From: Acaryochloris marina MBIC11017
GTDB taxonomy: Bacteria; Cyanobacteriota; Cyanobacteriia; Thermosynechococcales; Thermosynechococcaceae
Direction: 5' to 3'
DNA: 32,000 bases
Assembly (NCBI RefSeq): GCF_000018105.1
Contig: NC_009925.1
Location: 5,730,001-5,762,000 of the forward strand
Shown here: one piece after another, positions 1 through 28,640 of the stretch
Layout: each line of letters begins with the position of its first letter
How positions within the stretch are numbered: position 1 is the stretch's first letter
Position numbers and translations under genes: made by a program
Notes under the pieces: model-generated
What the model saw: only the letters and a program-made list of their open reading frames with translations
Database searches by the model: none
What the model was told of the DNA's origin: nothing

Positions 1-108
1 TGGTTCTATCCCTAATCTTGAGCGGCGGTTTGAGATTGGAACCACTGGTTTGAAGGGAATGAAAATACAGCCTTTCTGACCACACCTACATTGAGGAGAA
101 AAATTCCC

Positions 109-7630: not shown

Positions 7631-8257
7631 ATGATGAACTATAAATCTTTAGTCCTGGCGGCTGGTTTGGTTGCGATCGCACTTCCAGTACGGGCAGAAT
7701 TACCTGAGCATATTCAAGAATTACTCAATACCCGTCGCTGTATTCGGTGTGATTTGTCTCGCGCCAATTTTGGCGGTATGGATCTGAGCGTGACCAACCT
7801 GCAAGGGGCAAACTTGATTTTCTCTAATTTGGAGAATGTCAACCTCAACGCCTCTAACCTGACGGGGGCCAAGCTGATCCAGGCTCGGATGTCTGACGCG
7901 AATTTGCAAACCACCAACTTAAGCGTCACGGACTTAAGTAAAGCGGATTTGCGAGGCGCTAACTTGGTGGGGGCAGATTTGCGCAGTAGTCGCATGACCT
8001 CTGCCAACCTGAAAGGGGCAAAACTGCAGCAAGCCAAGCTGCAAGGGGTCAACCTAGGGGCCGCCAATCTGAAAGGGGCAAAGCTAAATGGGGCTAATTT
8101 GTTCTCGGCTGATTTACGCGGGGCCAACCTTCAAAATGCGGACCTATCAGGGGCCAACCTCAAGGAAGCTGATTTGAGTGGTGCGAATGTGAAGGGGATT
8201 AAACTCACGGACGCCGACCTAACGGGGGCCACCCTCCCGGATGGCATCCCCCAGTAG
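7631..8257 (+). CDS. Pentapeptide-repeat protein with signal peptide
   Basis: There is a signal peptide, a CIRCDL cap, and then continuous A(D/N)LxG-type pentapeptides (GANLxGAKL...). Confidence 0.9.
   Translation: MMNYKSLVLAAGLVAIALPVRAELPEHIQELLNTRRCIRCDLSRANFGGMDLSVTNLQGANLIFSNLENVNLNASNLTGAKLIQARMSDANLQTTNLSVTDLSKADLRGANLVGADLRSSRMTSANLKGAKLQQAKLQGVNLGAANLKGAKLNGANLFSADLRGANLQNADLSGANLKEADLSGANVKGIKLTDADLTGATLPDGIPQ
7673..7680. repeat. HIP1 octamer GCGATCGC
   Basis: Exact match read directly. Confidence 0.95.
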
Positions 8258-8260: not shown

Positions 8261-9130
8261 TTACTTACAGGTTGCCAAGGCTTGAAGAGAAGCGGGGATA
8301 TCCATCTGACAGAGTTTAGCCCCGCTTAAGTCTGCATTGCTCAAGTTGGCACCGCGCAAGTTGACATCTTTCATGGCAATCTTGCCTAGGTGAGCGCTGC
8401 TGAGGTCGGCTTCACTAAGATTGACGCTTTCTAAAGATGCTTTCCGCAGATCCGCGTTATTCAGCTTGGCCCCATTGAGGTTGGTGTACTTCAGTTGGGC
8501 CTGCTTCAGCTTTGCCCCTTTTAAGTTGGCTTCGCTCAGGTTGGCATTGGATAAATAGACCTGGTTAAGGGTGGCATTCTTAAGATTACTTTTATTGAAA
8601 TTAGCCTCTCTCAAATCGCTGAAGTAGACACGACGAATGCCTTGGGTCGTTTCCACCACTGCAACGCTAAAGTCCGCATCTTCGAGAGTCGCTTCAAATA
8701 AGTTGGCACGACGCAGATCGGCCCCTTTGAGCTTAGTTTTGACTAAGGTTGCCTGGGTGAGATTGGCGTCTTGCAAATTGGTGGCTTGCTTGAGGGTTGT
8801 GGTTAAGCTGGCCCGTCTAAGAGTTGCTTTGCTGAGATTGGCGTACTTTAAATTAGCGCTTTCTAAATTGGCATCGTCCAAATTAACGCCCTGCAAATTA
8901 GCGCCTTGCAGGTTCGCCCCTTGCAAGCTAGCACCCTTTAGATTTTGATCTTGCAAATTGGCTCCCCTGAGGTCGCATCCATCACAACTGTTGGTGGCCT
9001 GTAGCTGCTGGAGATGCTCCGGGTTGGGAGTCTGAGCGCTATTGCTGGCAGCACTCAGGGGCAAAAATGCGATAGAGAAGGAAGCCAGGGCTGTTCCTAT
9101 GACAAGACTGCCTTTATTCAACTGTTTCAT
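8261..9130 (-). CDS. Pentapeptide-repeat protein with signal peptide
   Basis: The ORF track extends to 9160. The likely start is the ATG at 9130 (MKQLNKGSLVIGTALASF...), which gives a signal peptide. A CDGCDL cap is followed by roughly 40 pentapeptide units. Confidence 0.9.
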   Translation of the reverse strand: MKQLNKGSLVIGTALASFSIAFLPLSAASNSAQTPNPEHLQQLQATNSCDGCDLRGANLQDQNLKGASLQGANLQGANLQGVNLDDANLESANLKYANLSKATLRRASLTTTLKQATNLQDANLTQATLVKTKLKGADLRRANLFEATLEDADFSVAVVETTQGIRRVYFSDLREANFNKSNLKNATLNQVYLSNANLSEANLKGAKLKQAQLKYTNLNGAKLNNADLRKASLESVNLSEADLSSAHLGKIAMKDVNLRGANLSNADLSGAKLCQMDIPASLQALATCK

Positions 9131-9259
9131 GTAATCCACCCAAATTAAAACGGTCTGCAATAGGTATTTATTCTCTAATCACTGTACTGTGATCAGGGCA
9201 AGGTTACAAAATGCTAAGGAACCAGAAAACTGCTAAACGCCTGCCTGAAGGGATTTTCG

Positions 9260-9913
9260 TTACAACACGCGCCAAATTAAGGTCCAAAGGGTCAAAAGAC
9301 TGGTGGTGAAAACCGCTTTTTGCGGGGCAAGAGTCTTAACGCCCCAGTACAGTAACCATAAGGACCAAAGGCTACCGACCAAGACAAACCAAAATAGCAC
9401 CTGTATAAAGACCTGACTGCTCAGGGTTTGACTGTATAGGCTCAGCCAAGTCAAATACTGGTTCAGCCAGGGGGCTTCTGGTCTAAACGCCACAAATTGG
9501 CTAAAGGGAATGACTCGTCCGGTAGCAGGCCAAAGTCCTGCTGCTCCCACCAGCAACAATCCTGCCGCGGCCAGGGGCCATTGGCTCCACCCGGCAAGTT
9601 GCCATGCCCGACATTGGCTTCTAGTGGTGAGCTGAATGATCCATCCGTAAATGCCCCAGCTTAATAGGGGCCAACTGATTAAACCAATCAAGATAAGGCT
9701 GATCAAAAAGGTCCCTCCAGGTGTAGTGCTGAGGGATTGCAATATATCTAGGGAAATAATGGATGGCAGGTTTCGAGTCCAGATCCAGTAGGCGGTGTAT
9801 CGTAGCCAGCCGGCACCTAAGACGATTCCCAAGGGCACCCAGAATTTAGGCGGTTGTTCGAAAAGCTGCCGGAAAAATAATTTTGGGTGGGCAATAAGGG
9901 ACCAGAGGTTCAT
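9260..9913 (-). CDS. Polytopic membrane protein, possibly Yip1-like
   Basis: A 217-aa ORF with an ATG start, about five Trp/Leu-rich hydrophobic helices and host-like GC. The family assignment is tentative. Confidence 0.6.
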   Translation of the reverse strand: MNLWSLIAHPKLFFRQLFEQPPKFWVPLGIVLGAGWLRYTAYWIWTRNLPSIISLDILQSLSTTPGGTFLISLILIGLISWPLLSWGIYGWIIQLTTRSQCRAWQLAGWSQWPLAAAGLLLVGAAGLWPATGRVIPFSQFVAFRPEAPWLNQYLTWLSLYSQTLSSQVFIQVLFWFVLVGSLWSLWLLYWGVKTLAPQKAVFTTSLLTLWTLIWRVL

Positions 9914-10533
9914 CTGGAGTCATATTCCCTTTCTTAAAGTACTAAGCTTTACGGATTCTAATCCTTTTGGTGGACTGGATGGCTAGGGAATTCGTATTCC
10001 AAAAATAGACATCAGGGGATAGGGGAACTCAACTCTCTATAGCTTTGAAAATCCACATTTATTTGAGGCATAAACAAAGATTTGGGGTATTAATCGCTGT
10101 TTTCAAGGGTTGGACTAACCACTTCTGACAGATTTTTCTGAAGATGAAGAGTAACATGAAAAATCAAAAAATTTAGGGTTCAAACGCTTTAAATGGTAAG
10201 GATATCAAAAACTCTATTTGCTGATAACCATGGCTTAGGGAAAGGATAAAGTAGAATATTCTTCAAATCTTTAAAGCATGAATCCTAATGGAAGTTCAAA
10301 GCAATTTTTGCCTAGCTATTACTAAAGATAACTCTCTAGTATCATGAGTTTACCATAGAAGCAAAACAAAAGCTTATATTTTTTATATGGGAAATAAATA
10401 AATTTATATTATTTAACTATAAAAACTAAAAAATAATGGTAGCAATAAATAAGTGATATTTTATGGAAAAAATTAACGTTTATCGATATTTTTCAAATTG
10501 CTTGTTCAAGTAACTAATATAAAGACTCAAACT

Positions 10534-11241
10534 ATGCCTTCTACTTTAAAAAAACTAAAAATATACATTCCAGCACTTATTCTACTATTACTAATAGTTA
10601 TTGCCAGACTAAAGACGAATATTCCTATAAATGTTTTTTTAAGTGATCCAGCTGTTATTGCTGGTTCTAATGGGCTTAGCTCCTTAATCCAAGCCACAAC
10701 AAATCCTTTCGTTGGAGTAGCTTCCAATATAGGTATTTTGTGTTGGTGTATTTCTGCATCAGTGTGTTTTTTTAGCTGTTTTTTAATCAGAAAAAAACTC
10801 ATGCCTTATAGTAATGGCTATAAGGAATTATTTAATTTTTTGCTGCTATCAGGACTGATTACCTCAGTGTTATTAATTGATGATTTATTTCTTTTACATG
10901 AGGCTATTATTCCTAAGCTACTTAAAATCCCTCAGTATCTTACTTATTCATTATATATGGTTACAGTATTCTACTGGATTAATAGATTTAGGAAGATAAT
11001 TATCAAAACAGAATGGGATTTACTTGCTTTAGCATTTATATTTTTTACATTCTCTATTTTTACTGATACTGCAATGGATTATTTTGAATTAAGTAATCAT
11101 ATGAATATACTATCAAATAATGAATTACTAGTATTGTTAGAGGATGGTTTTAAGCTATTTGGAATAATAAGTTGGCTTACATATTTAAGTAAAACTTCCT
11201 TGTTGATTATAGAAACCATTATTGAAGGAGAAAGACTATAA
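10534..11241 (+). CDS. Polytopic membrane protein of unknown family (first gene of the AT-rich cassette)
   Basis: The ORF track starts at TTG 10498. The first ATG is at 10534 (MPSTLKKLKIYIPALILLLLIVIA...). There are about six hydrophobic segments and extremely AT-rich codon usage. Confidence 0.6.
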   Translation: MPSTLKKLKIYIPALILLLLIVIARLKTNIPINVFLSDPAVIAGSNGLSSLIQATTNPFVGVASNIGILCWCISASVCFFSCFLIRKKLMPYSNGYKELFNFLLLSGLITSVLLIDDLFLLHEAIIPKLLKIPQYLTYSLYMVTVFYWINRFRKIIIKTEWDLLALAFIFFTFSIFTDTAMDYFELSNHMNILSNNELLVLLEDGFKLFGIISWLTYLSKTSLLIIETIIEGERL

Positions 11242-11281
11242 AATAACGTATGTCATTTTTAAGTCTAAAAAAATAAAATAT

Positions 11282-12418
11282 ATGAAAAATAAATATCATT
11301 CAATTTTAATAATAGATGAATGTGATCAGCCCATTGCTTATTATGTATTGAGATGTTTGAAATCGGGGAATCAGAATTTAAAGATCAGTATAATTATCCC
11401 GTTAAACCAGTCATCTATAGAAAATAATTGGATAACTTTCTATAAATATTCGAGATATATAGATCGTCTAATTATTGCAAGTAATGAGATAGATTCCAAT
11501 GACTTTCTGAATGAAGTAATTCAAGCAATCCAGCAAGAATCGATCGATTATATTTTTCCGGCTTCTGAAAATAGTTTTAAGTTTGTATCCAGACATAGGG
11601 TTCAACTATCATCTTCAAGTAACTTAATAGCCTTACCCAGCCAAAATTCTTTAGATGTGACATTTAATAAGTGGGAATTGAGTCTTTTTCTGAAAAACAG
11701 AAAAATTCCAACTCCTAAAACTATTCTACCAAGTTCAATCACTCAATCGAATCAATTATCTTACCCAATTCTACTAAAACCAGCCTGCGGAAGTGGAGGT
11801 GAAAATATTAAAAAGATCGAAGAAGTATCAGTGCTTAAATCTATAATACATAATCCAATTGCTAAGAATGATTATAAAGATTATATATTGCAAGAATATA
11901 TTGATGGCTATGATATTGATTGTAATGTACTCTGCAAAGATGGAAAGATTCTTACTCATTCTGTGCAAAAACCATTAGGTATAGAAAAAGGATTTTCGCC
12001 AAAGATTGATAAATTACATTTTATTCATGATAACTCTGTATTGAGTATCGTAAAAAAAACAATGTTTGAGCTTCAATGGAGTGGAATTGCCCATCTAGAT
12101 CTTAGGTACTGCCATAAAACAGGTAATCTATACTTAATTGAAATAAACCCTAGATTTTGGCAATCTTTAATGGGCTCACTTTCCATTGGTATTAATTTCC
12201 CATATCTACTATTTCTAGTATCAGCTGGGTTTGATATCGGAGACGTTTATTATGATGATCAATACTATGCAAAGTTTTCTAGATATATAAAAGATATACT
12301 TAGTGGTTCACTAGACTATAGTCTAGATAATACTAACCTAAAATACTTGCTGACAGATTTAAATTCAATTGCTAATTATGGTATAAAACGTTTTTTTGGA
12401 AGCAAGACCATTAGTTAG
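11282..12418 (+). CDS. ATP-grasp family ligase
   Basis: The ORF track starts at TTG 11222. The ATG at 11282 gives MKNKYHSILIIDE.... ATP-grasp hallmarks are present: YPILLKPACGSGGENI, ILQEYIDGYDIDCNVL, LYLIEINPRFWQS and INFPYLLF. An N-terminal pre-ATP-grasp-like region precedes them. Confidence 0.8.
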   Translation: MKNKYHSILIIDECDQPIAYYVLRCLKSGNQNLKISIIIPLNQSSIENNWITFYKYSRYIDRLIIASNEIDSNDFLNEVIQAIQQESIDYIFPASENSFKFVSRHRVQLSSSSNLIALPSQNSLDVTFNKWELSLFLKNRKIPTPKTILPSSITQSNQLSYPILLKPACGSGGENIKKIEEVSVLKSIIHNPIAKNDYKDYILQEYIDGYDIDCNVLCKDGKILTHSVQKPLGIEKGFSPKIDKLHFIHDNSVLSIVKKTMFELQWSGIAHLDLRYCHKTGNLYLIEINPRFWQSLMGSLSIGINFPYLLFLVSAGFDIGDVYYDDQYYAKFSRYIKDILSGSLDYSLDNTNLKYLLTDLNSIANYGIKRFFGSKTIS

Positions 12419-12456
12419 TTTAGCTATTTTATTGATATATCTTATAAAGAGTAAAA

Positions 12457-13551
12457 ATGGACGTAAAGATAATTAATACAGAGAATGATTTGTGGCTAAA
12501 AGTCTTATCGAACTTGCAACATGATATATATCACTTGCCAGGATATATTGCTTTAGAAGCAAAAAGGTATAATGCTATCCCTAAAGCTATTTTAATAACT
12601 GATGAACGGAAAATTTTCTTCCTACCTTATCTCCTTCGTCAATTTAATGACTTATCTCTCCAAGGAAATGAAGTGGGGCCAATACTTGATATCATCTCTC
12701 CCTATGGCTACCCAGGTATATTGCTAAGTAAAGATGCATATTCAAGCCCAGAATTTGTGAATCTAGCGATTGAAAAGCTAAAAATAAGTATATTTGAACA
12801 AGGTGCCTGCTCAGCTTTCTTTCGACTTCATCCCATCCTTAATAACTTTGTAAGTGATTCTCAGCCTGAATCTTTTGTTGAAAATGGAACAACAGTATCT
12901 GTTGACTTAAAACTCTCTGAAGAAGAGATATGGGGCCACACAAGGAAAGGGCATAAAAGTACAATCAATAAATGTAAGCGGTTGGGTATGCAAGCAAGAA
13001 TGGTTCCAGTTCTTGAGTACCTTGAAGTGCTATCTAACATTCAGGAAGAAACTAACGAGCGGGTAGGCGCTTCACAAAGCTACTACGATTTTAATTATGA
13101 TTATTTTTTAAATATGTTCAATGCTTTTGGAGAGAAACTACATATATGTATTGTTGAACTTGATGATCGGATTTTGTGTGCTGGCCTATATTCTGAGTGT
13201 TGTGGAATAGTGCAAAGTATATTTGGTGGTACAAAAAATAATTATATTAATTTATCTCCAAGTACTTTAGAAACGGATTATGCCAGATACTGGGCTAAAA
13301 AACGCGGGAATAGCTATTTGCATTTAGGTGGTGGTGTTGGTGGAAGAAAGGATAGTGTATATACATTTAAGTCAGGCTTCTCAAAGCAAAAACATTCTTT
13401 TGTTACACTACGTTTAATTAGTGATCAACCTGTCTATGATCGTTTAGTTCGGTTGCGTGCCAAATCAATAGGTATAGAAACAGATAAACTACTTAGGCTA
13501 AATTTTTTCCCGGCCTATCGATACTGTTATCAACCAAATCTTAGCTCTTGA
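12457..13551 (+). CDS. FemAB / Acetyltransf_6-type GNAT-fold transferase
   Basis: A 364-aa ORF. The architecture and motifs (HTRKGHKSTINKCKRLGMQ, YSECCGIVQSIFGG, YLHLGGGVGG..DSVYTFKSGFS) resemble Fem-type or BioF2-like acyl/aminoacyl transferases. This is recognised by eye only. Confidence 0.6.
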   Translation: MDVKIINTENDLWLKVLSNLQHDIYHLPGYIALEAKRYNAIPKAILITDERKIFFLPYLLRQFNDLSLQGNEVGPILDIISPYGYPGILLSKDAYSSPEFVNLAIEKLKISIFEQGACSAFFRLHPILNNFVSDSQPESFVENGTTVSVDLKLSEEEIWGHTRKGHKSTINKCKRLGMQARMVPVLEYLEVLSNIQEETNERVGASQSYYDFNYDYFLNMFNAFGEKLHICIVELDDRILCAGLYSECCGIVQSIFGGTKNNYINLSPSTLETDYARYWAKKRGNSYLHLGGGVGGRKDSVYTFKSGFSKQKHSFVTLRLISDQPVYDRLVRLRAKSIGIETDKLLRLNFFPAYRYCYQPNLSS

Positions 13552-13659
13552 TAACGGAATAGTAATTTATCTGATTGAATATATCATGGAGAAGCTGGGG
13601 AAAAGAGACTCAGGTGGAGTGGGGAACTGGTCTATTAACAGGTCATATCCTTTAACCCT

Positions 13660-13944
13660 TTACTTAGTGAAGAGTTCTAATGTGCTCAACGGACGGGAAC
13701 AAAATCTTATTTTCATTGCTGGTGTCGTCTGCTTACTGAGCCCCCAATGGGGTCTAACCCAGTAATGAATAAGTCGTTGTACGTCTAGCACTCGCTGTAA
13801 CCCTGACTGATTCTTTGTGTAGAGATTCTGCTGCCTTCGATAAGCACTACTTCATCTCTTCAAAGCAGCATTGTGAACCTCGTTGTAATTGGCATAGACT
13901 TCAGATGTTGGGGTTATAGCGGTAAAAGGATGCTCTACTTTCAT
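13660..13944 (-). pseudogene. Transposase C-terminal remnant with an in-frame TGA, truncated at its 5' side by the adjacent IS insertion
   Basis: My hand translation is MKVEHPFTAITPTSEVYANYNEVHNAALKR*SSAYRRQQNLYTKNQSGLQRVLDVQRLIHYWVRPHWGLSKQTTPAMKI.... The pattern N-x-x-x-N-x-x-L-(K/R)...YWVRPH...TPAM is typical of transposase C-termini. No N-terminal part is present. Confidence 0.45.
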
Positions 13945-13948
13945 CTAT

Positions 13949-13971
13949 CCCTCTTTTATCACTTTAGACAG
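13949..13971. repeat. Terminal inverted repeat of the IS701-family element (left)
   Basis: Read directly; it is the perfect reverse complement of 15318-15340. Confidence 0.9.
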
Positions 13972-15277
13972 AGAGAAAATCAGGATGCTTGAGCAATTTC
14001 CTCACCAGTGGACAGCAAAATGCCTCCATCTTTGATGTGAGTTGCTCAAACCCCTTTTTCAAAGCACGGCTGGGAAAGACTTCTAACCAGCGCTTTAGAA
14101 GATTCCAACTGATTAACGGTTGAATGATCAAGCGCACATTATTGAGCAGATTCTTCCACCCGTTTTGGTTATCCCACCAAGGATGCTGCGCAAAGTGTTG
14201 ATGTGCCACTGGACAAGAGTCATTGAAGACATCAGCGAACAAACTCACCATCAAGAAAGCGCTCATCACTATCTCCCACCACTTTTCAATTTGTTCGTAG
14301 TGCGTCATGCGAAAATCAGCCCAACCCAAGGTATCTTTAGACTGTTTGAGACCATACTCAATCCAAGTTCTGAAGCCATAGCAATCCCCAATTTCATCCA
14401 GCTTGATCTCGGGTGCCGCTGCCATGACATAAGAGGTTGAGTTCTCTGGTAGCGTTTGGGGGTCCGTGGTTAATAGCCAATAGCGCTTCTGGTGGTGTCG
14501 CTGGCCATAAATGATCTCTTGCCTGTAACGAGTTTCAGTGGTGCCATTGCTGAAGGTTCGTTCAAATGACTGCCACGGTTCGGCAAAGACTGCTTGTTCT
14601 GCGGGTAACCACACCGCATGATTGCTACGAATCGCTAGGATATAGGGCAGCTTTAACTCCTCTAAGACATTCACAAAGTTTGTTTGAGCTTCCCCATACA
14701 AGCTGTCAGCCAGGACGAGCTCAAAGCAAAAGCCCATCCCTTGCAACTGTCGGATCATTCCAGCAGCAATTTGGGGTTTGCTGAGATACTCATCCTCCTC
14801 TTTAAGACGTTCTCGGGGTTTGTACACTTCAAAGGACAAAGGCAAAATCATCCCTTGAAACAGCCCGTAGGCAGTGACTGCGACGATGCCATTCTCTTTC
14901 TTGCCCACATTGCCGATATACTGCCGTTTCACATAGTCGGTACTCTTGCCTTTTTTGCAATCGCCCGTCTCATCGATCAATAGAATTAACCTGCGCCCAT
15001 CCAGTATTTTCAAGATGATGTCCAATCTCTTGTCAGACAAATGTGACGCTACCCAAGGTGATTCACTCAGAAAATGATGCAGGCTTTGATGGTTCTCCAA
15101 GCCCACTGCTCTTGCAATGGCGGGCAATGATTTACGTTTGATATCACTAATCATCCCCAGATGGAGATGCTTGAAGGCTTCATAACTGCGGACTTGGGGA
15201 AATAACTCTGCAAATAGTTGGCAGTACTCATCAACAAAGCCAATGGTTGGTTCTGGACTTCTTGAAGCTGACATCAC
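13964..15277 (-). CDS. IS701-family DDE transposase
   Basis: A 437-aa ORF. It has the motif LLIDETGDCKKGKSTDYVKRQYIGNVGKKENGIV typical of IS701-like transposases. The reading frame is intact. Confidence 0.85.
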   Translation of the reverse strand: MMSASRSPEPTIGFVDEYCQLFAELFPQVRSYEAFKHLHLGMISDIKRKSLPAIARAVGLENHQSLHHFLSESPWVASHLSDKRLDIILKILDGRRLILLIDETGDCKKGKSTDYVKRQYIGNVGKKENGIVAVTAYGLFQGMILPLSFEVYKPRERLKEEDEYLSKPQIAAGMIRQLQGMGFCFELVLADSLYGEAQTNFVNVLEELKLPYILAIRSNHAVWLPAEQAVFAEPWQSFERTFSNGTTETRYRQEIIYGQRHHQKRYWLLTTDPQTLPENSTSYVMAAAPEIKLDEIGDCYGFRTWIEYGLKQSKDTLGWADFRMTHYEQIEKWWEIVMSAFLMVSLFADVFNDSCPVAHQHFAQHPWWDNQNGWKNLLNNVRLIIQPLISWNLLKRWLEVFPSRALKKGFEQLTSKMEAFCCPLVRKLLKHPDFLSV

Positions 15278-15317
15278 TCATTAGAAAAATAGAAACTGAG
15301 AATAGTCTATTTTTTAT

Positions 15318-15340
15318 CTGTCTAAAGTGATAAAAGAGGG
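15318..15340. repeat. Terminal inverted repeat of the IS701-family element (right)
   Basis: Read directly; it is the perfect reverse complement of 13949-13971. Confidence 0.9.
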
Positions 15341-15343
15341 CTA

Positions 15344-16486
15344 TACTCTAGACGGTTAAGAGATTAACTTTCTGGAAAGACTGAAACTTGAGTGAGAGCA
15401 GGCTGGTTAGTTTCGCCTTATGCTCTGTATTGCATTGGTCAATGCACTGTTGAATGGCCCCTTTGAAAGAGTGAAAATCCGAATAATACTTCGAGTAGAG
15501 ACATTCCTTGCGCACAAAGCGCCAAAGCCGCTCAATCAAATTCAAATGGGGTGAATAGGAGGGCAAATAGACTAACTCAATATCGACGATCTCAGCAAAG
15601 TCAGTCACCAGCTGGCATTTTTGATATCGGGCATTGTCTAAAATGACGCTGATGGGTATGACTGGGTCGAGTAGTGCCAGCTTGGCTAGCAACAGACACA
15701 TGCTATGAGAGTTGATGTAGGTGTGGTTGGTGATACTGGTGACTTCTTTGGTGACAGCGTTGAGTGCACCCAGAACATTGAATCGTTGACGGCCAGAAGG
15801 AGAAGGGATGAAGATCCGACGAAGGCACCAGAGAAACCCCAGATAAGCCCGGTGAACAAAATGAGCAGCATCCACAAAAAAGACAAGACGCTCTTGGCGT
15901 TGAGCTTCCTCTAATAAGGGTTCAAGGCGAGTTTGTCGAAACTGCTCTTGCTCCTCAATTTTCTCGGGCAGACTCGACTTTCCCGGCACATACCCCACTT
16001 TTCGAGAGCGACAACCAATGCGTTTGAGGAAGGCTTTGATCTGGGTTGGAGAACGCTTAATACCTGTCAATTGTTCAATGACTGCTTGGGCTTCTGCACT
16101 GGTGCGGGGCGGGTGTTGCTCAAAATAGGCTCTCACACTATCGCTATGAGCGTTGAGTGAACTGGATTGACCTTTGTATTCCAGGGTTTTCAACCCTTCA
16201 ATTCCGCCTTGTTGATACAGACGAAGGGTTTTAGCTAAGGTCGGACGACTAATCTGACAAAGCTGACAAATCTGGGCATGGGGAAGACCCTGACTTTTCA
16301 AGTAGAGCACTTCCATCCGTCGCTGCACCCGTGGGTGAGGGTGATGATAGCGTTCGTAATTGAGGTGTTGGATTTCCTCTGCGGTGAAATCAATTTTAAT
16401 CATGCAAGTAGGGGAGTCGGTTGAGGGATACTCCCAGTCTGCCAAATCTCTCCACTACAATGTTAAGCCGCAAGTCGTACGCAGTA
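15344..16486 (-). mobile_element. IS630-family insertion sequence (ends approximate)
   Basis: TA dinucleotides lie at 15342-15343 and 16487-16488. Both termini begin TACT, but the inverted repeats otherwise match only in blocks (GAC, GG(C)TTAA, GAGATT). The length of about 1.14 kb is typical for IS630. Confidence 0.6.
15348..16403 (-). CDS. IS630-family (Tc1/mariner-like) DDE transposase
   Basis: The ORF track extends to TTG 16445. The ATG at 16403 gives MIKIDFTAEEIQ.... There is an N-terminal HTH region, plus VFFVDAAHF, ILDNARYQK and LPSYSPHLNLIERLW, which fit the DD..E signature of IS630. Confidence 0.85.
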   Translation of the reverse strand: MIKIDFTAEEIQHLNYERYHHPHPRVQRRMEVLYLKSQGLPHAQICQLCQISRPTLAKTLRLYQQGGIEGLKTLEYKGQSSSLNAHSDSVRAYFEQHPPRTSAEAQAVIEQLTGIKRSPTQIKAFLKRIGCRSRKVGYVPGKSSLPEKIEEQEQFRQTRLEPLLEEAQRQERLVFFVDAAHFVHRAYLGFLWCLRRIFIPSPSGRQRFNVLGALNAVTKEVTSITNHTYINSHSMCLLLAKLALLDPVIPISVILDNARYQKCQLVTDFAEIVDIELVYLPSYSPHLNLIERLWRFVRKECLYSKYYSDFHSFKGAIQQCIDQCNTEHKAKLTSLLSLKFQSFQKVNLLTV

Positions 16487-16685
16487 TAATTTGATTTTGA
16501 TCTGACGTTTCCCCTTTATTTCATATCCCTAAGGATTCATGTATAGTCCACGGTGGCCTCAGCTCAATAATCTATAAGATGTCAAACTTGTCCTCTAACT
16601 CCTATTCAGCTTGTTTCAAAGCATTTATCTGCAAAGGCAGCAACTTTAGTGTAAATTCTGGAACTGAACTGATCCCAAATGAATT

Positions 16686-16973
16686 TCAGAGCAAAGCTTT
16701 ACTTGGAGAAGAGGGTTGAATAGAGATTCTAGGAGCGGCGAACAAGTATACACCATTGCCAATCTCTCTAAACTGACCCCTGATGGAATAGGTACTACCT
16801 GCTAGAAAGTCAGTAATCCTTCGAGCAGATTCATAGGGTAATTTTCCTAAGTTAACGAGCAATAGCTGTCCCTTTTTTAAGGCTTGTGCATCTACTTCTG
16901 CTTCAGTAAAGGTATTTGGATAAGATAAGATTATTTCACAAGCAAGACCATGGATTGGCGTCAGATTATTCAT
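16686..16973 (-). CDS. Hypothetical protein (95 aa), AT-rich orphan between IS630 and IS1 copies
   Basis: It has an ATG start. I recognise no family, and the composition is island-like. Confidence 0.35.
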   Translation of the reverse strand: MNNLTPIHGLACEIILSYPNTFTEAEVDAQALKKGQLLLVNLGKLPYESARRITDFLAGSTYSIRGQFREIGNGVYLFAAPRISIQPSSPSKALL

Positions 16974-17227
16974 GATTTAATGGCATACTAATCAGATAAT
17001 TATTTTTTTTCTGTAAGCCTTTTATCCTACTCATATATGAGAAATGTTTGGAATTAAGTAAAATTTCAGATATATTAAGCAAAGGATTTTAAGTCATTAA
17101 ATGAGTTGATTGATAATGAATTTACTTTGAATCTCTTAAAGATAAATCACCAAGCCAAACACTGGTCGTGCATCAAAGAAGTGTGGGTTTGTTAAACCGA
17201 TAGGGAGTCGAGTTGTTTTATTTCCTC

Positions 17228-17605
17228 ATGCAATGTCCTCTATGTGGTCATCCTAAAACCCACAAACATGGCAAGACCAGCAAAGGCAGTCAACGTTACC
17301 GTTGCCCCCACTGTCAACAGACCTTTAGTGAGACCTTTGACACCCTGTGTTATCGCCGTCAGATCTCTCCTGAAACGATCCAGACCATCCTTCAAGCTCA
17401 TGTTGAAGGGAGTAGTCTACGAGGACTCTCTCGCATCACGGGTGTAGCGTATAACACTTGTGTGAGTGTGGTTCGTTCAGCGAGTCATAAATCCCAAATG
17501 ATTCACAATGGGGAAGTTCAGGCCGTTGCGACCGACGTCATTAATGCAGATGAGTTGTGGTCCTTTGTCAAAAAAAGCAAAAGCACTGTGAGCCGAAGGA
17601 GTTGA
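17228..17605 (+). CDS. insA: IS1-family InsA (zinc finger + HTH)
   Basis: The ATG at 17228 gives MQCPLCGHPKTHKHGKTSKGSQRYRCPHCQ.... This is the CxxC...CxxC zinc finger followed by an HTH, as in IS1 InsA. Confidence 0.8.
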   Translation: MQCPLCGHPKTHKHGKTSKGSQRYRCPHCQQTFSETFDTLCYRRQISPETIQTILQAHVEGSSLRGLSRITGVAYNTCVSVVRSASHKSQMIHNGEVQAVATDVINADELWSFVKKSKSTVSRRS

Positions 17606-18057
17606 GGGTAGGCGACTGCTGGATAGCATTGAGTCTTGCGAAAGAGAGTGGTCTCGTGCTCAGTGGCCGTATTGGCAAACATACCGACGAGCTAGCTCAA
17701 GAATTGATTGAAAATACTGAGGGCAAAACCGCCTGTCATCATTGGCAAACGGATGGTTGGGAAGGGTACGCACGACAATTACCCGATGAGGTCGTCCATG
17801 AAGTGAGTAAAGCCCTGACCCAACGCTTAGAGCGGACCAATGGCATCGTGCGTCAGCAGACCGGGCGTTGGCATCGACGACAGAATAAATTTGGCAAAGT
17901 CTGGCAACAGAGTGCGATGACTTTAAGATTGGTGCTGAGCTATTTCAACTGGATTTGGTGCCACTCTCGATTCAAGAACACGGCTGCCCAACGAGCTGGA
18001 TTGACGGAGCGTCCTTGGAGATGGCAAGACTTAGCTTCCTATCCCACACTTTGTTGA
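17557..18057 (+). CDS. insB: IS1-family InsB frame, expected to be expressed as an InsAB' fusion by -1 frameshifting at the A7 run 17570-17576
   Basis: The frame is -1 relative to insA and has no independent ATG. The A7 slippery run lies in the overlap. The fused reading gives ...ADELWSFVKK|KQKHCEPKELRVGDCWIAL..., the pattern expected for IS1 transposases. Confidence 0.8.
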   Translation: MVLCQKKQKHCEPKELRVGDCWIALSLAKESGLVLSGRIGKHTDELAQELIENTEGKTACHHWQTDGWEGYARQLPDEVVHEVSKALTQRLERTNGIVRQQTGRWHRRQNKFGKVWQQSAMTLRLVLSYFNWIWCHSRFKNTAAQRAGLTERPWRWQDLASYPTLC

Positions 18058-18135
18058 TGCACAATCTCTTAATTGAGCTGAAATTCTTCTAGGATTTTGA
18101 GATATTAAAAATTGACTAACTTAGTATTCAGTGAA

Positions 18136-19492: not shown

Positions 19493-20830
19493 ATGACAGT
19501 TGATGAAGCACTAGAAATTATTGATGTTGCGCTTGCACCCCAACGTCTTAATGCTCTCCAGGAGTTAATCTTTAAGCAATGCTGGAAGGGACTTACGTAT
19601 CAAGATATTGCGGCGTTAGCTGGATATGACAATGACTATATTCGGCGAGTCGGATCGCAGCTTTGGCTTGAATTAACGGATTTATTTGCAGAAAAAGTCA
19701 CAAAAAGTAACTTTCGTTCCGTCCTCAGGCAACAAAGCCATAATTCTGACACCCAGAATACCCCTGATACAGAATATTGCCAGAAATCTAATCCTATACC
19801 TGATTTCCCCAGCAGTTCAGTTCCCTTGGAATCACCTTTTTACATCAAGAGGAACCTAGCCGAGAAACGGTCCTATGAAACGGTTGTTCGACCTGGATCT
19901 CTCATTCGGATAAAAGCACCAAAAAAGTGGGGGAAAACCTCTTTACTGCTCAGAATAATAGTTTATGCTGAGTCACAAAATTTTAATACGGTTAGATTAA
20001 ATTTTAATCAGGCAGATCAATCTATTCTCATGAGTTTAGATAAGCTGTTGAGGTGGATATGTTTGAACTTGACTAACCAACTCCAAATACAATCGAAAGT
20101 TGATGAATTTTGGGATAGAGACCTAGGCAGCAAAGTAAGTTGTACGAATTATTTCAGAAGATATATCCTAAGCCAACTGAGTGATCCCCTCGTGATTGCA
20201 TTGGATGATTTAGATCGATTGTTTGAGTATTCTCAAACAGCTCAAGATTTTCTGCCCATGCTGAGGTATTGGCATGAAGAAGCAAATAATTTTGAGGTAT
20301 GGAAAAAACTCCGACTCATTGTTGCCCATAGTACGGAAGCCTATATCCCCCTCAATCTCAGTCAGTCCCCTTTTAATGTAGGCCTTCCCATTCAGTTACA
20401 AGCGTTAACTGTCGATCAGGTCCAAGAATTAGCAGATAGATATGCTTGTACTTGGACAAAAGGTAAATCTGGTCGAACAAAAATATCCTGCCTATGTGAC
20501 TTATGTGGAGGTCACCCTTATTTATTGAACCTGGCTTTTTACCACCTTTTTCATAAAGATCTCTCTCTTCAGGAGCTTATTGATGATGCCCCGATACCGA
20601 CTGGACTCTTTAGCAGCCACCTAAGTAACCAGTTGTTTACGCTTCAACAGCATCCTGAGCTAGCTCGTCACTTTAAAGAAATTGTGTCTGTGGAACAGCC
20701 CATATCTATACCATATGTTTCAGCTTATAAGCTCGAAAGCCTTGGCTTGATTCGATTTGAAAAAGATCAAGTGGTACCAATGTGCGAGTTATATAGACGA
20801 TATTTTCGCAATTGCACAAGTCAATTTTAG
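19493..20830 (+). CDS. HTH-like N-terminal module + AAA_35-type ('AAA-like domain') P-loop ATPase
   Basis: The N-terminus (LQELIFKQCWKGLTYQDIAALAGYDNDYIRRVGSQLW...KVTKSNFRSVL) is the conserved module seen at the N-termini of many cyanobacterial STAND/WD40/AAA-like proteins. Other motifs: Walker A APKKWGKTSLL, Walker B LVIALDDLDRLF, SPFNVG and GGHPYL. Confidence 0.8.
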   Translation: MTVDEALEIIDVALAPQRLNALQELIFKQCWKGLTYQDIAALAGYDNDYIRRVGSQLWLELTDLFAEKVTKSNFRSVLRQQSHNSDTQNTPDTEYCQKSNPIPDFPSSSVPLESPFYIKRNLAEKRSYETVVRPGSLIRIKAPKKWGKTSLLLRIIVYAESQNFNTVRLNFNQADQSILMSLDKLLRWICLNLTNQLQIQSKVDEFWDRDLGSKVSCTNYFRRYILSQLSDPLVIALDDLDRLFEYSQTAQDFLPMLRYWHEEANNFEVWKKLRLIVAHSTEAYIPLNLSQSPFNVGLPIQLQALTVDQVQELADRYACTWTKGKSGRTKISCLCDLCGGHPYLLNLAFYHLFHKDLSLQELIDDAPIPTGLFSSHLSNQLFTLQQHPELARHFKEIVSVEQPISIPYVSAYKLESLGLIRFEKDQVVPMCELYRRYFRNCTSQF

Positions 20831-20848
20831 GAAATTTGGTTTAGGTTT

Positions 20849-26539: not shown

Positions 26540-27352
26540 ATGTGCCGTTTGTTGGGCTATTTAGGCGAACCGGTTTCGTTAGATACCTTTCTCATTGCCC
26601 CCCGCCATTCCCTCGTGGCCCAGAGCTACCAGCCCAAAGAAATGACGGCGGGTTTAATTAACGCCGATGGATTTGGTATGGGTTGGTATAAGCCAGCTTC
26701 CCAACATCCCCCCTATCGGTATCGCAACAGTTTACCCATTTGGAATGATCCCAACTTTGAGGAACTCTGTCGCTATATTTCGTCCGGGAGTTTTCTCGCC
26801 TATATTCGCAGCGCCACCCTGGGACAAAGCCTGCAGCTCAGTAATTGCCAACCCTTTGGCGATCGCCAATTGCTGGGGATTCACAATGGCTTTATTGATC
26901 GGTTTCGTCAAACTCTCTATCGACCGATGCGGGACTGTCTCAGTGACGAACGCTACCAAAGTATTGAAGGAACAACGGACTCAGAACATATTCTGGCTTT
27001 GATTTATGAAACCCTGACCCAAAATCCGACTCAGACCTTGGCCCAGGCTTTGACTCAATCCTTGCACCAGATCCAAGCTTGGGCTAAATCCTATGAGGTG
27101 CGGGTAAGCCTGAATATTGTGCTCAGTGATGGTGAATCTATGACCGTGTCTCGTTACGCCTATCCCGATCCGCCTCCGTCTTTGTACTGGTTAGAAGTGA
27201 CCCATCCGGTGAAAGGGGTACTGGTGGCGTCAGAGCCTTTAGATGCCGATGCAGAGATGCGATCGCAATTTGGGGAGCGTTGGCAATCCATTCCAGCCAA
27301 CTGTTTGTTAACCATCAATCCCAGGAGAGAAGTTGCCACCCATGCCCTCTAA
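26540..27352 (+). CDS. egtC: Class II (Ntn) glutamine amidotransferase, EgtC-like
   Basis: It starts MCRLLGYLG, with the N-terminal nucleophile Cys2. It also has NADGFGMGWY, NCQPFG, HNGFI and GTTDSEH. It overlaps egtB by 11 nt. Confidence 0.7.
   Translation: MCRLLGYLGEPVSLDTFLIAPRHSLVAQSYQPKEMTAGLINADGFGMGWYKPASQHPPYRYRNSLPIWNDPNFEELCRYISSGSFLAYIRSATLGQSLQLSNCQPFGDRQLLGIHNGFIDRFRQTLYRPMRDCLSDERYQSIEGTTDSEHILALIYETLTQNPTQTLAQALTQSLHQIQAWAKSYEVRVSLNIVLSDGESMTVSRYAYPDPPPSLYWLEVTHPVKGVLVASEPLDADAEMRSQFGERWQSIPANCLLTINPRREVATHAL
26859..26866. repeat. HIP1 octamer GCGATCGC
   Basis: Exact match read directly. Confidence 0.95.
27259..27266. repeat. HIP1 octamer GCGATCGC
   Basis: Exact match read directly. 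Confidence 0.95.
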
Positions 27353-28640
27353 GGAACTATTTTCTGGAACAGAACCGCTGCAATTAGAGATTAAGGACAC
27401 CTTGACCCAATCCCGCGCCCGCACCCTCCAGCTTTTTGAAGGCGTTAGTGAGGAGACGTTTCGCCTGCAAGCCAATTCTGACTTTAGCCCGGTGGGGTGG
27501 CATTTGGGACATATTGGCTTTACCGAAGGACTGTGGCTTTTAGAACATGAAGCTGGATATGCCCCCCTGTTTCCAGAGTATCGGCGGTTATTTGCGGCGG
27601 ATGGCTTACCTAAGGCTGAGCGCCAAAACCTGCCCTCCTTTGCGGAAATATGTGCCTATCTAGAGCAAATCCGGAATCAAGTTTGGGACTATTTGCTAGA
27701 AGCCCCTTTAGACACTCGGGCTTGGCTATGGCATTGGTTAGTCCAGCACGAAAGCCAGCATTGCGAGACCATCACCTGGGTGCTCCAACTGCATCGCCGA
27801 CAATCCCAACCCGTTTCGTTTGTGGCCAAGGAAAAGCCATGGCCTGCTGCCCTTGTCAGTACCTCTAAAGAGAAGCCCACCCTGCCAGATCATCAAGACA
27901 TGGTTCCCATTGAAGGGGGGCAGTTTCTCTTAGGCAATGACGGTTTGGAAGCCCTCGATAACGAAAGAAAAGCCCATTGGGTTCAGGTGGATTCATTTTG
28001 GATCGATCGATTTCCCGTGACTCAAGGCCAGTATCAACAGTTCATTGAAGCGGGGGGATATCGTCAGTCCCAATTTTGGTCAGATGAGGGATGGCAATGG
28101 TTACAAGAGAATCCCGTTAACCATCCCACCCATTGGCTTGCCGAGGGGGGAGCTGATCATCCCGTCTGTGGGGTGAGCTGGTATGAAGCAGATGCCTATG
28201 CTCGGTTTGTGGGCAAACGACTACCGACGGAGGCGGAATGGGAGAAGGCAGCCTGTTGGCAGCCTAGACCTCAGGATCCACCCACCAAGCGAATCTATCC
28301 TTGGGGCAACCAGACCCCGGACAACCACCACTGTAATCATGGGGGCTTGCATTGGGGGACGACCCCCGTTCATCAGTATGCAAACGGGCAAAGCGCCTTT
28401 GGTTGTTTCGATTTACTAGGCAATGTTTGGGAATGGACCAATACCTGGTTCCATCCCTTTCCTGATTTCGATCCCTATCCCTACAAAGGCTATTCCATGG
28501 TTTATTTTGATCACCAGCATCGCATCTTAAAAGGGGGGAGTTGGGCGACCCAGGCCCCGGTTCTTAGGGGGGCCTTCCGTAACTGGTATGAGCCTCGGAT
28601 TCGAATTCATTTTGCAGGGTTTCGCTGTGCCTATGGGTGA
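27342..28640 (+). CDS. egtB: Ergothioneine biosynthesis sulfoxide synthase EgtB (DinB-like + FGE-sulfatase domains)
   Basis: The ATG at 27342 lies within the ORF-track ORF 27333-28640. The DinB-type His ligands are in GWHLGHI and QHESQHCETI. The C-terminal FGE-type domain shows PVCGVSWYEADAYARF, GNVWEW and LKGGSW. Confidence 0.85.
   Translation: MPSKELFSGTEPLQLEIKDTLTQSRARTLQLFEGVSEETFRLQANSDFSPVGWHLGHIGFTEGLWLLEHEAGYAPLFPEYRRLFAADGLPKAERQNLPSFAEICAYLEQIRNQVWDYLLEAPLDTRAWLWHWLVQHESQHCETITWVLQLHRRQSQPVSFVAKEKPWPAALVSTSKEKPTLPDHQDMVPIEGGQFLLGNDGLEALDNERKAHWVQVDSFWIDRFPVTQGQYQQFIEAGGYRQSQFWSDEGWQWLQENPVNHPTHWLAEGGADHPVCGVSWYEADAYARFVGKRLPTEAEWEKAACWQPRPQDPPTKRIYPWGNQTPDNHHCNHGGLHWGTTPVHQYANGQSAFGCFDLLGNVWEWTNTWFHPFPDFDPYPYKGYSMVYFDHQHRILKGGSWATQAPVLRGAFRNWYEPRIRIHFAGFRCAYG

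What the first reader, a model, noticed from the sequence alone, without database searches (positions are those of the whole stretch)
10534..13551. Very AT-rich three-gene cassette (unknown polytopic membrane protein + ATP-grasp ligase + Fem/GNAT-fold transferase): candidate undescribed amino-acid-ligating module
Three co-oriented genes are separated by only about 40 nt, which suggests an operon. Their sampled GC is 25-40%, against about 50% in the host flanks, and transposase debris follows immediately. This points to recent acquisition from a much lower-GC donor. ATP-grasp enzymes make amide or ester bonds through acyl-phosphates. Fem-type GNAT-fold enzymes transfer aminoacyl or acyl groups, often from aminoacyl-tRNA, to peptidoglycan stems, lipids or small molecules. 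Pairing both chemistries with a dedicated membrane protein of no recognisable family suggests a self-contained module. It might aminoacylate or peptide-decorate an envelope component, or make and export a small peptide-like product. I do not recognise the trio as any described pathway. It is not microviridin/graspetide (no precursor ORF found), and it does not have the architecture of MAA or cyanophycin loci.
Basis: partly seen in the sequence, partly recalled or inferred. Interest (0 to 1): 0.72.

Follow-up and report, generated by a model that had tools for sequence, protein, structure and literature searches.

The report
Mobile amide-ligase cassette for envelope decoration
A foreign-looking three-gene cassette in the cyanobacterium Acaryochloris marina encodes two different amide-bond-forming enzymes and a membrane protein of a large unstudied family. 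It most likely attaches amino-acid-type groups to a cell-surface sugar polymer, but nobody has characterised this system.

Summary
Three co-oriented genes (10534-11241, 11282-12418, 12457-13551) are separated by 40 and 38 nt. Their GC is 29-36% and GC3 21-26%, against GC3 of about 52% in host genes. The window is Acaryochloris marina MBIC11017, and the first gene is AM1_5676.

- Gene 2 is an ATP-grasp ligase of an uncharacterised PRK12767/2pn1-like subgroup.
- Gene 3 is a FemX-type double-GNAT transferase that keeps the catalytic Lys305 and Phe304.
- Gene 1 is a 6-TM protein from a family of about 4,300 clusters with no Pfam model and no PDB relative.

The trio recurs as a unit in three other cyanobacterial contigs. 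Its sub-pairs (membrane+ATP-grasp, Fem+ATP-grasp) sit beside amino-sugar aminotransferase, Wzc, small PGT and Wzx/Wzy genes. Divergent versions of all three families co-occur in glycan loci of Chloroflexota and Actinomycetota.

The transposases are later, strain-specific IS insertions, not the vehicle. The island is fixed in all sampled A. marina strains and is under purifying selection.

Best reading (about 0.5): a mobile accessory cassette that N-acylates or aminoacylates an envelope glycan precursor. No substrate is shown, and the membrane protein's role is unknown. It is a new variant of a known kind and of moderate interest.

The parts
10001..10533 (.). AT-rich leader at the left edge of the compositional island (GC about 0.29-0.30)
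   Evidence: Composition profile and GC of 9914-10533 = 0.303. No Rfam match. No convincing small ORF. The promoter scan is not above the shuffled expectation.
10534..11241 (+). Gene M: 235-aa, 6-TM membrane protein (AM1_5676) from a large unannotated family
   Evidence: 100% identical to ABW30623.1/AM1_5676. No Pfam or NCBIfam hit, also for 42 family members. AF2 model pLDDT 89.2, pTM 0.87, all-helical. No PDB fold or sequence relative. Invariant D38, S64, D116, D117, H122, E123, D178, K207 and W214. The positive-inside rule places these on the periplasmic face (inference). 4,269 clusters at 50% identity with E<=1e-3.
11282..12418 (+). Gene G: 378-aa ATP-grasp carboxylate-amine ligase, PRK12767/2pn1-like subgroup
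   Evidence: PF02655 at E=3e-13. The best NCBIfam match is PRK12767.1-5 at E=7e-26, far below its cut-off. The closest PDB entry is the uncharacterised 2pn1 (E=6e-19 with the family profile). Invariant K166, D273, E287, N289 and R291 in 31 orthologs. dN/dS is 0.25 against the 97%-identical strain.
12457..13551 (+). Gene F: 364-aa FemX-type double-GNAT aminoacyl-tRNA-dependent transferase homolog
   Evidence: PF02388 at E=9e-11, above the cut-off. The family profile hits FemX_Wv at E=6.6e-7, and FemX F304-K305 align with the family's F304 (at least 90% conserved) and invariant K305. AF2 pLDDT 85.8. The top 11 Foldseek hits are all aa-tRNA Fem-type enzymes, with FemX at TM 0.65-0.73 and E=1.7e-14. 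2,537 homologs, with the top hits all cyanobacterial at 52-62% identity.
13948..16486 (-). Context only: two strain-specific IS insertions. One is an IS with a DDE_5 transposase and 35-nt terminal inverted repeats (13946-15343). The other is IS630-like with a DDE_3 transposase (15348-16445).
   Evidence: Pfam and inverted repeats I1. Absent from L170, which is collinear with window 11257-13947 and 16487-17163.
17164..18066 (+). Context only: strain-specific IS1-like insertion (InsA-like 17213-17605 and DDE_Tnp_IS1 17557-18057, overlapping ORFs)
   Evidence: Pfam. Absent from L170.

Best explanation
AM1_5676-5678 is a horizontally acquired accessory cassette that is now fixed in A. marina. It most likely puts amide-linked acyl or amino-acyl groups onto an amine-bearing precursor of a cell-envelope glycan (O-antigen, EPS or a similar Wzx/Wzy-type polymer).

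Proposed steps:
1. In the cytoplasm, the FemX-type enzyme transfers an amino acid from aminoacyl-tRNA to a free amine of a nucleotide-linked or undecaprenyl-PP-linked sugar. The best candidate is a 4-amino-4,6-dideoxy-HexNAc (bacillosamine-type) sugar.
2. The ATP-grasp enzyme activates a carboxylate as an acyl-phosphate and ligates it to an amine. That amine is either the same sugar amine or the new alpha-amine left by the Fem step.
3. The 6-TM protein is functionally coupled to the ligase. It may handle the modified lipid-linked intermediate, or it may carry out a further step at the periplasmic face, where its invariant Asp/His/Glu cluster is predicted to lie.

Shown here: the enzyme folds and retained catalytic residues, synteny of the trio and of its sub-pairs, their glycan-locus contexts, foreign composition, the history of the island, and purifying selection.

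Inferred: the acceptor, the donors, the order of steps, and everything about the membrane protein's activity.
For: Enzyme identity. The roles of catalytic Lys305 and Phe304 come from PMC9723616 and PMC12945691.

Context of close homologs:
- Nostoc punctiforme has small PGT - unknown - PhyH - Fem - ATP-grasp - LegC/PseC-like aminotransferase - Wzc, with Wzx, Wzy, GT4s and a PglF-like dehydratase upstream and no PglD-type acetyltransferase.
- L004/L090 has the whole trio between the aminotransferase/Wzc genes and a PGT-PhyH-Fem block.
- L087 and L088 have aminotransferase-Wzc-ispH-M-G.
- L092, L093 and L094 have G next to the aminotransferase.

Divergent M+G+F sets occur in glycan loci of Anaerolineae (L049: UGDH, Fem, sulfotransferase, G, M, GT4, Fem) and Acidimicrobiaceae (L068: M, Fem, G, Wzx).

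Precedents for each chemistry on amino sugars or glycans:
- Neisseria PglB2, an ATP-grasp+PGT that makes glyceramido-bacillosamine (PMC11130364).
- Orf11/Sbb17/Sba18, Fem-like enzymes that aminoacylate an amino sugar with Gly-tRNA (PMC12945691). These are among the best fold matches.
- Cj1438C, an ATP-grasp that amidates GlcA in a capsule (PMC11800379).

The genes are maintained. They are intact and identical in MBIC10699, and dN/dS is 0.25-0.34 against a 97%-identical strain.
Against: - In this window, and in L091 and L177, the trio is not in a glycan locus, so the acceptor pathway is unseen here.
- No substrate can be read from sequence. The nearest solved ATP-grasp (2pn1) is uncharacterised.
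- Fem-type enzymes classically act on peptidoglycan precursors, and some sources label the ATP-grasp orthologs 'D-aspartate ligase', which is a peptidoglycan enzyme.
- About 65 of 80 members of the membrane family have neither partner within 4 kb.
- The periplasmic placement of its conserved residues rests only on the positive-inside rule.
- No experiment exists for any member.
Confidence: 0.5

Rival explanations
1. Peptidoglycan or membrane-lipid aminoacylation. The Fem enzyme and the ATP-grasp add amino acids to the stem peptide of UDP-MurNAc-pentapeptide or lipid II (FemX-like and D-aspartate-ligase-like), or to a lipid head group (split-MprF logic). The membrane protein translocates or positions the modified lipid.
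For: The best fold matches are peptidoglycan Fem enzymes, and MprF synthase domains follow at TM 0.5-0.6. JGI labels several ATP-grasp orthologs 'D-aspartate ligase'. The trio occurs detached from glycan loci in three genomes, which would suit a universally available acceptor such as lipid II or a phospholipid.
Against: The recurrent neighbours of F and G are sugar aminotransferase, Wzc, PGT, Wzx/Wzy and glycosyltransferases, not mur, ddl or pbp genes. The membrane protein shows no Pfam or fold similarity to the MprF flippase, although MprF structures are in the library searched. The 'D-aspartate ligase' label is an automatic annotation. No NCBIfam equivalog reaches its cut-off.
Confidence: 0.17
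2. Synthesis and export of a small peptide-like metabolite. The ATP-grasp acts as an L-amino-acid-ligase-type enzyme, the Fem enzyme adds a further residue from aminoacyl-tRNA (as in dehydrophos or pacidamycin), and the membrane protein exports the product or gives self-protection.
For: The ATP-grasp profile weakly matches the L-amino-acid ligases BL00235 and RizA (E of about 1e-4). Fem-like enzymes do extend peptides in natural-product pathways. The cassette is compact, mobile and often stand-alone. In Desulfuromonadales the membrane family sits with an ATP-grasp, a 2-hydroxyacid dehydrogenase and a PEP mutase carrying the EDKxxxxxNS motif, which is a phosphonate-type cluster.
Against: No other tailoring, precursor or regulatory genes travel with the trio. 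No conserved small ORF was found. The contexts of most close homologs are glycan assembly genes. The membrane protein has no similarity to any known transporter family or fold.
Confidence: 0.12
3. A functionally inert passenger. The low-GC island is a decaying fragment of a foreign glycan locus that no longer has a substrate in A. marina.
For: The cassette is separated from any glycan genes in the window and keeps a strongly foreign composition. The region is an IS hot spot.
Against: All three ORFs are intact and identical in a second complete genome, and they are present in every related contig reaching the site. dN/dS is 0.25-0.34. The ISs inserted beside the genes, not into them. The same stand-alone arrangement recurs in L091 and L177.
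Confidence: 0.06

Closest known systems
FemX of Weissella viridescens (FemABX family, UDP-MurNAc-pentapeptide:L-Ala transferase)
   Same: Same double-GNAT fold (TM 0.65-0.73) and similar size, without the coiled-coil insertion of FemA/B. The catalytic Lys305 and the tRNA-contacting Phe304 are conserved.
   Different: Only 14-16% identity. The profile alignment covers only the C-terminal GNAT domain. The genomic context is glycan assembly, not peptidoglycan. Acceptor and amino acid are unknown.
Orf11/Sbb17/Sba18 of streptothricin-type pathways (Fem-like, Gly-tRNA-dependent aminoacylation of the amino sugar streptothrisamine)
   Same: Among the best fold matches (TMt 0.72-0.76). They show that Fem-type enzymes can acylate a sugar amine.
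   Different: Those are actinomycete antibiotic enzymes of about 285 aa in secondary-metabolite clusters. Here the protein is 364 aa and sits in cyanobacterial envelope-glycan contexts.
Neisseria PglB2 (ATP-grasp domain fused to a phosphoglycosyltransferase; makes glyceramido-acetamido-trideoxyhexose)
   Same: An ATP-grasp replaces the PglD-type acetyltransferase in a bacillosamine-type pathway, next to a small PGT and a sugar aminotransferase. The Nostoc-type loci have the same logic and no PglD.
   Different: Here the ATP-grasp is a separate protein, not fused to a PGT. Sequence relatedness to PglB2 could not be tested. It is paired with a Fem enzyme and/or a novel membrane protein.
Campylobacter jejuni Cj1438 C-terminal domain (TupA-like ATP-grasp amidating the GlcA carboxylate of the capsule)
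   Same: An ATP-grasp that forms an amide on a surface polysaccharide. UDP-glucose dehydrogenase genes occur in some related loci (L004, L049, L101).
   Different: A different ATP-grasp subfamily: there is no TupA-type Pfam hit. Cj1438 is fused to a GT2 polymerising glycosyltransferase.
MprF (aminoacyl-phosphatidylglycerol synthase plus flippase)
   Same: The logic is similar: a cytoplasmic Fem-like aa-tRNA transferase working with a polytopic membrane partner. The MprF synthase domain is a significant but weaker fold match (TM 0.5-0.6).
   Different: The membrane protein is unrelated in sequence and fold to the MprF flippase. The genes are separate. F and M are rarely adjacent without G.

Membership tests
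FemABX aminoacyl-tRNA-dependent transferases (PF02388) | Match to the family HMM above the curated cut-off | tested here: met
   41.6 bits against a cut-off of 24, E=9.4e-11. The family profile hits FemX_Wv at E=6.6e-7.
FemABX aminoacyl-tRNA-dependent transferases (PF02388) | Tandem GNAT fold superimposable on FemX/FemA | tested here: met
   AF2 pLDDT 85.8. Foldseek top 11 are all Fem-type, with FemX at TM 0.65-0.73 and E=1.7e-14.
FemABX aminoacyl-tRNA-dependent transferases (PF02388) | Catalytic Lys (FemX K305) preceded by the conserved Phe (F304) that contacts the tRNA 3' end | tested here: met
   FemX 'YVFKHVF' aligns with the family's 'LYxFKAGF'. K305 is invariant and F304 is at least 90% conserved in 30 sequences. 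The roles of these residues are from PMC9723616 and PMC12945691.
FemABX aminoacyl-tRNA-dependent transferases (PF02388) | Uses aminoacyl-tRNA as donor and a peptidoglycan precursor as acceptor | not testable with these tools
   Needs enzymology. The genomic context argues for a glycan rather than a peptidoglycan acceptor.
ATP-grasp superfamily | ATP-grasp domain HMM above the cut-off, with conserved Lys and Asp/Glu-x-Asn nucleotide/Mg residues | tested here: met
   PF02655 at 50.5 bits against 23.2. Invariant K166, D273, E287, N289 and R291, in the 'IEINPRFW' motif, across 31 orthologs. Mapping these to catalytic roles is by analogy.
PRK12767 'carbamoyl phosphate synthase-like' equivalogs (NCBIfam) | Score above the equivalog cut-off | tested here: not met
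   The best score is 91 bits against a cut-off of 271. The protein is related to this subgroup (2pn1 at E=6e-19) but is not a member of any curated equivalog.
PglB2-type ATP-grasp/phosphoglycosyltransferase | ATP-grasp fused to a Bac_transf PGT domain | tested here: not met
   The 378-aa protein has ATP-grasp domains only. In related loci the small PGT is a separate gene.
TupA-like glycan amidoligases (Cj1438C type) | TupA-type ATP-grasp domain | tested here: not met
   No TupA-type family among the 11 Pfam ATP-grasp hits at E<=1.
Graspetide/microviridin systems | Adjacent precursor peptide gene and a RimK-like macrocyclase ATP-grasp | tested here: not met
   No plausible or conserved small ORF in the leader or spacers. 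RimK-type hits are weak: PF08443 at E=0.074 and rimK_fam at 40.7 bits against a cut-off of 143.
MprF-type aminoacyl-lipid synthase/flippase | Membrane component homologous to the MprF flippase domain | tested here: not met
   No Pfam hit. No MprF chain among the 50 best-ranked Foldseek matches listed for the membrane model (E 0.7-6.0; 100 matches at E<=10 in all), although MprF structures are in the library.
Wzx/Wzy-dependent polysaccharide locus (accessory modification genes) | Located within a cluster with PGT, glycosyltransferases, Wzx, Wzy and Wzc | tested here: inconclusive
   Not met in this window, L091 or L177. Met for the homologs in Nostoc, Stanieria, L004/L090, L094, L049 and L068, and partly in L087, L088, L092 and L093.
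Known anti-phage defence systems (PADLOC) | Match to any defence-system protein model | tested here: not met
   No hits for the three proteins.

The most novel reading that the evidence does not exclude
The 6-TM protein founds a new class of periplasm-facing membrane enzyme or translocase that partners with cytoplasmic amide-forming ligases (ATP-grasp or Fem-type) across at least four phyla. Together they would make a previously unrecognised route for installing amino-acyl, acyl or phosphonate-bearing decorations on envelope glycans or lipids. The logic would resemble split MprF or Arn/Dlt systems, but with unrelated parts.
Probability: 0.22. Interest if true: 0.75.

Novelty: new variant of a known kind. 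Interest (0 to 1): 0.5.

Why it matters
Non-acetyl N-acyl and amino-acyl substituents on surface sugars shape phage and grazer recognition, charge, desiccation tolerance and metal binding. The genes that install them are mostly unknown outside a few pathogens, and unknown in cyanobacteria.

This cassette gives a compact and testable candidate. It combines two orthogonal amide-forming chemistries, one tRNA-dependent and one ATP-dependent, and it moves between genomes as a unit.

It also gives the first functional handle, by guilt by association, on a membrane-protein family of about 4,300 sequence clusters that has no Pfam model and no structural relative.

If the Fem enzyme really uses aminoacyl-tRNA on a sugar, it would carry tRNA-dependent aminoacylation from peptidoglycan, lipids and antibiotics into envelope polysaccharides.

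Tried and rejected
- **Structured RNA and tRNA:** an Rfam scan of 9500-14000 at E<=1 found nothing, so there is no riboswitch or T-box to hint at a substrate. There is no tRNA or tmRNA gene in the window, so no tRNA integration site.
- **Promoters and terminators:** the scan was not above the shuffled expectation. The only '+' hairpin lies inside gene M.
- **Island borders:** no direct repeats flank the island. Only the IS inverted repeats are significant.
- **Precursor peptide:** small ORFs in the leader and downstream spacer are not credible.
- **Defence systems:** PADLOC gave no hits.
- **Membrane protein identity:** Pfam on 42 members gave only scattered chance hits, and the 'DUF998' label that UniRef gives one member was not reproduced. 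Neither PDB Foldseek nor a profile search of the PDB found a relative.
- **Lipocone superfamily paper:** read as a lead for the membrane protein. It does not describe this family, and membership was not tested.
- **Microviridin/graspetide, MAA and cyanophycin:** rejected on architecture and HMM scores.
- **ISs as evidence of recent transfer:** rejected after comparison with L170 and L171.
- **Empty site:** a search of related strains found none.
- **Literature:** searches for the locus tags and for Fem-family genes in cyanobacteria found no functional study.


Full report
**Observation**

The spacers are 40 and 38 nt and contain no terminator-like hairpin.

Composition is strongly atypical. 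GC is 0.285, 0.303 and 0.356, and GC3 is 0.21-0.26. Neighbouring genes have GC3 of 0.44-0.53, and the adjacent 500-nt windows are about 0.50 GC. The low-GC block begins near 10000, so it includes a 530-nt leader.

Exact matches identify the window as Acaryochloris marina MBIC11017. The first gene is AM1_5676.

**The two enzymes**

Gene 2 (G) is an ATP-grasp. PF02655 scores E=3e-13, above its cut-off. The best NCBIfam models are the 'carbamoyl-phosphate-synthase-like' PRK12767 set, but at 91 bits it is far below their cut-offs. A profile of 31 orthologs finds the uncharacterised structural-genomics protein 2pn1 as the nearest solved structure (E=6e-19). Characterised ligases are only distant matches: Ddl/VanA, LysX/RimK, cyanophycin synthetase and L-amino-acid ligases. 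The nucleotide/Mg-type residues (K166, D273, E287, N289, R291) are invariant.

Gene 3 (F) is Fem-type. PF02388 scores E=9e-11, above its cut-off. A profile of 30 homologs hits Weissella FemX at E=6.6e-7. FemX F304-K305 align with the family's F304 (at least 90% conserved) and invariant K305. Lys305 is the catalytic residue, and Phe304 is conserved in all Fem transferases and contacts the tRNA 3' end (PMC9723616 and PMC12945691).

The AF2 model of F (pLDDT 85.8) has aminoacyl-tRNA-dependent Fem-type enzymes as its top 11 PDB matches. These are FemX (TM 0.65-0.73), FemA, and Sbb17/Sba18 bound to the amino sugar streptothrisamine. MprF synthase domains follow.

**The membrane protein**

Gene 1 (M) has no Pfam or NCBIfam hit, and neither do 41 relatives beyond scattered chance matches. 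Its AF2 model is confident (pLDDT 89.2, pTM 0.87) and shows six long helices. Foldseek finds nothing significant in the PDB (best E=0.7, TM no higher than 0.35), and a profile search of PDB sequences finds nothing either.

The family is large:
- A full-library profile search gives 4,269 clusters at 50% identity with E<=1e-3, some of them tandem duplications.
- A genome scan finds 208 species-level genomes across Cyanobacteriota, Proteobacteria, Bacteroidota, Acidobacteriota, Chloroflexota and others.

Nine positions are invariant: D38, S64, D116, D117, H122, E123, D178, K207 and W214. Averaged over 42 sequences, K+R counts are 10.2 on the N-terminus, loops 2 and 4, and the C-terminus, against 3.8 on loops 1, 3 and 5. 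By the positive-inside rule this puts both termini in the cytoplasm and the invariant polar cluster at the periplasmic face. This is an inference. It makes the protein look more like an enzyme or a specific binding site than a passive anchor.

**Synteny**

The trio recurs:
- M-G-F in the same order in L004/L090 (57, 60 and 62% identity) and in L177 (54, 59 and 58%).
- F-M-G in L091.

It is built from separable sub-modules:
- M-G without F in L087, L088 and L089.
- F-G without M in Nostoc punctiforme, L093 and L094.
- G alone in L092.
- F alone in Stanieria.

G is the hub. Counting ten distinct loci with G at 48% identity or above (the nine retrieved loci plus the window itself), six have M adjacent and six have F adjacent.

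The M family at large is mostly unlinked. Among 80 species-level loci, none has an ortholog of this F. Eleven have a PRK12767-like ATP-grasp within 4 kb (the representative, L005, scores E=1.4e-15). Four have a Fem-like gene. That is far more than chance for such rare gene families. This is my estimate and was not computed formally.

Two of those loci carry divergent versions of all three families:
- L049 (Anaerolineae): UGDH, beta-helix protein, Fem, sulfotransferase, G overlapping M by 4 nt, GT4, then a second Fem.
- L068 (Acidimicrobiaceae): M, UPF0489, Fem overlapping G, and later Wzx.

**Context**

Where close homologs have informative neighbours, these are glycan-assembly genes. In Nostoc punctiforme the order is Wzx, Wzy, two GT4s, an unknown gene, a small PglC-type PGT, an unknown gene, PhyH, F, G, a LegC/PseC-like sugar 4-aminotransferase, then Wzc. 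A PglF-like dehydratase lies upstream, and there is no PglD-type acetyltransferase.

L004/L090 places the trio between aminotransferase/Wzc genes and a PGT-PhyH-Fem-paralog block that also has an epimerase, UGDH and GT4. L087 and L088 have aminotransferase, Wzc, ispH, M, G.

This is the layout of a bacillosamine-type pathway in which the usual N-acetyltransferase is replaced by other amine-acylating enzymes. Neisseria PglB2 is an ATP-grasp+PGT that makes a glyceramido sugar. Orf11/Sbb17/Sba18 are Fem-like enzymes that aminoacylate an amino sugar from Gly-tRNA. These show that each chemistry is feasible on such substrates. Cj1438C shows the alternative in which an ATP-grasp amidates a uronic acid.

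In this window, in L091 and in L177, however, the trio sits among unrelated genes:
- Window: Yip1-domain and pentapeptide-repeat genes upstream, SepF-like, PadR and AAA_35 downstream.
- L177: UvrD.
- L091: NACHT, an FGE-like gene and FtsJ.

So the cassette can travel and persist as a unit, with its acceptor presumably encoded elsewhere.

**Island history**

A strain about 97% identical (L170) has G and F at the same site and then runs straight into the SepF-like and PadR genes. Its contig begins inside G, so M and the left border are not seen there. Window 13948-16486 (two ISs) and 17164-18066 (an IS1-like element) are insertions specific to MBIC11017. The first IS has 35-nt terminal inverted repeats.

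The complete MBIC10699 chromosome carries an identical trio (0 mismatches) with a different IS complement. Every related contig that reaches past the Yip1 gene has the island, and no empty site was found.

dN/dS against L170 is 0.25 for G (53 differences) and 0.34 for F (only 9 differences).

Homologs live in cyanobacteria of 34-42% GC, where they are only slightly AT-richer than their surroundings. The island was therefore acquired from a low-GC cyanobacterium before the sampled A. marina strains diverged. It is maintained by selection. The ISs are incidental.

**Interpretation**

The best-supported model (about 0.5) is a mobile accessory cassette that N-acylates or aminoacylates an amine-bearing precursor of an envelope glycan in the cytoplasm. 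M is coupled to the ligase for a step at or across the membrane.

Rivals:
- Peptidoglycan or lipid aminoacylation (0.17).
- A small exported peptide-like metabolite (0.12).
- An inert relic (0.06).

Neither the acceptor, the donors nor M's activity can be decided by computation.

**Novelty**

No paper in the searchable library mentions the locus tags or a cyanobacterial Fem-family function. The chemistry proposed has precedents. The combination, its mobility and the new membrane family do not. I rate it a new variant of a known kind, with interest 0.5.

Noticed in passing
window 26540-29845 (+): Three consecutive genes: GATase_4, DinB_2+FGE-sulfatase, and Methyltransf_33 (E=4e-114). This is the egtC-egtB-egtD architecture of an ergothioneine biosynthesis operon.
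   Followed up: no
window 13946-15343, 15344-16486, 17164-18066: Three apparently intact ISs: DDE_5 with 35-nt inverted repeats, IS630-like, and IS1-like with two overlapping ORFs. All are absent from a 97%-identical strain. MBIC10699 has a different IS set at the same spot, so this is a local IS hot spot.
   Followed up: yes
window 19493-23824 (+): An AAA_35 protein (445 aa) followed by an AAA_35 + triple-GAF protein (991 aa). GC is 40-41% and GC3 35%, making a second compositionally atypical block. The first protein also carries an HTH_VMAP-M9 hit in L170. There is no PADLOC match.
   Followed up: partly
window 91-2637 (+): An unusual fusion of a cNMP-binding domain, a sigma-54-type AAA+ domain and a Fer4_5 membrane/4Fe-4S region.
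   Followed up: no
window 7631-8257 (+) and 8261-9160 (-): Two convergent pentapeptide-repeat proteins with hydrophobic N-termini, next to a Yip1-domain membrane protein.
   Followed up: no
L005 4817-9629; also L007, L016, L060, L081: In Desulfuromonadales-type genomes the same membrane family sits in a conserved block: ATP-grasp (408 aa), 2-hydroxyacid dehydrogenase, PEP mutase, M, and an unknown 289-aa protein. The PEP mutase sequence contains EDKLFPKNNS, the EDKxxxxxNS motif I know as diagnostic of true PepM. This suggests a phosphonate-decoration pathway that uses the same membrane partner.
   Followed up: partly
proteins P0312-P0315: Some members of the membrane family are 415-535 aa and match the profile twice, that is, they are tandem duplications of the 6-TM unit.
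   Followed up: no
window 11282-13551 vs L170 26-2295: Divergence inside the island is uneven. The ATP-grasp differs at 53 of 1137 nt but the Fem gene at only 9 of 1095 nt, which may reflect recombination within the cassette.
   Followed up: no
L002 7884-8996 and 9074-9964; L003 7149-8222; L004 12410-14416: A 357-370-aa protein with no Pfam or NCBIfam match and a PhyH-family dioxygenase are conserved between the small PGT and the Fem gene in Nostoc, Stanieria and L004. These are further uncharacterised parts of the cyanobacterial glycan-modification block.
   Followed up: partly
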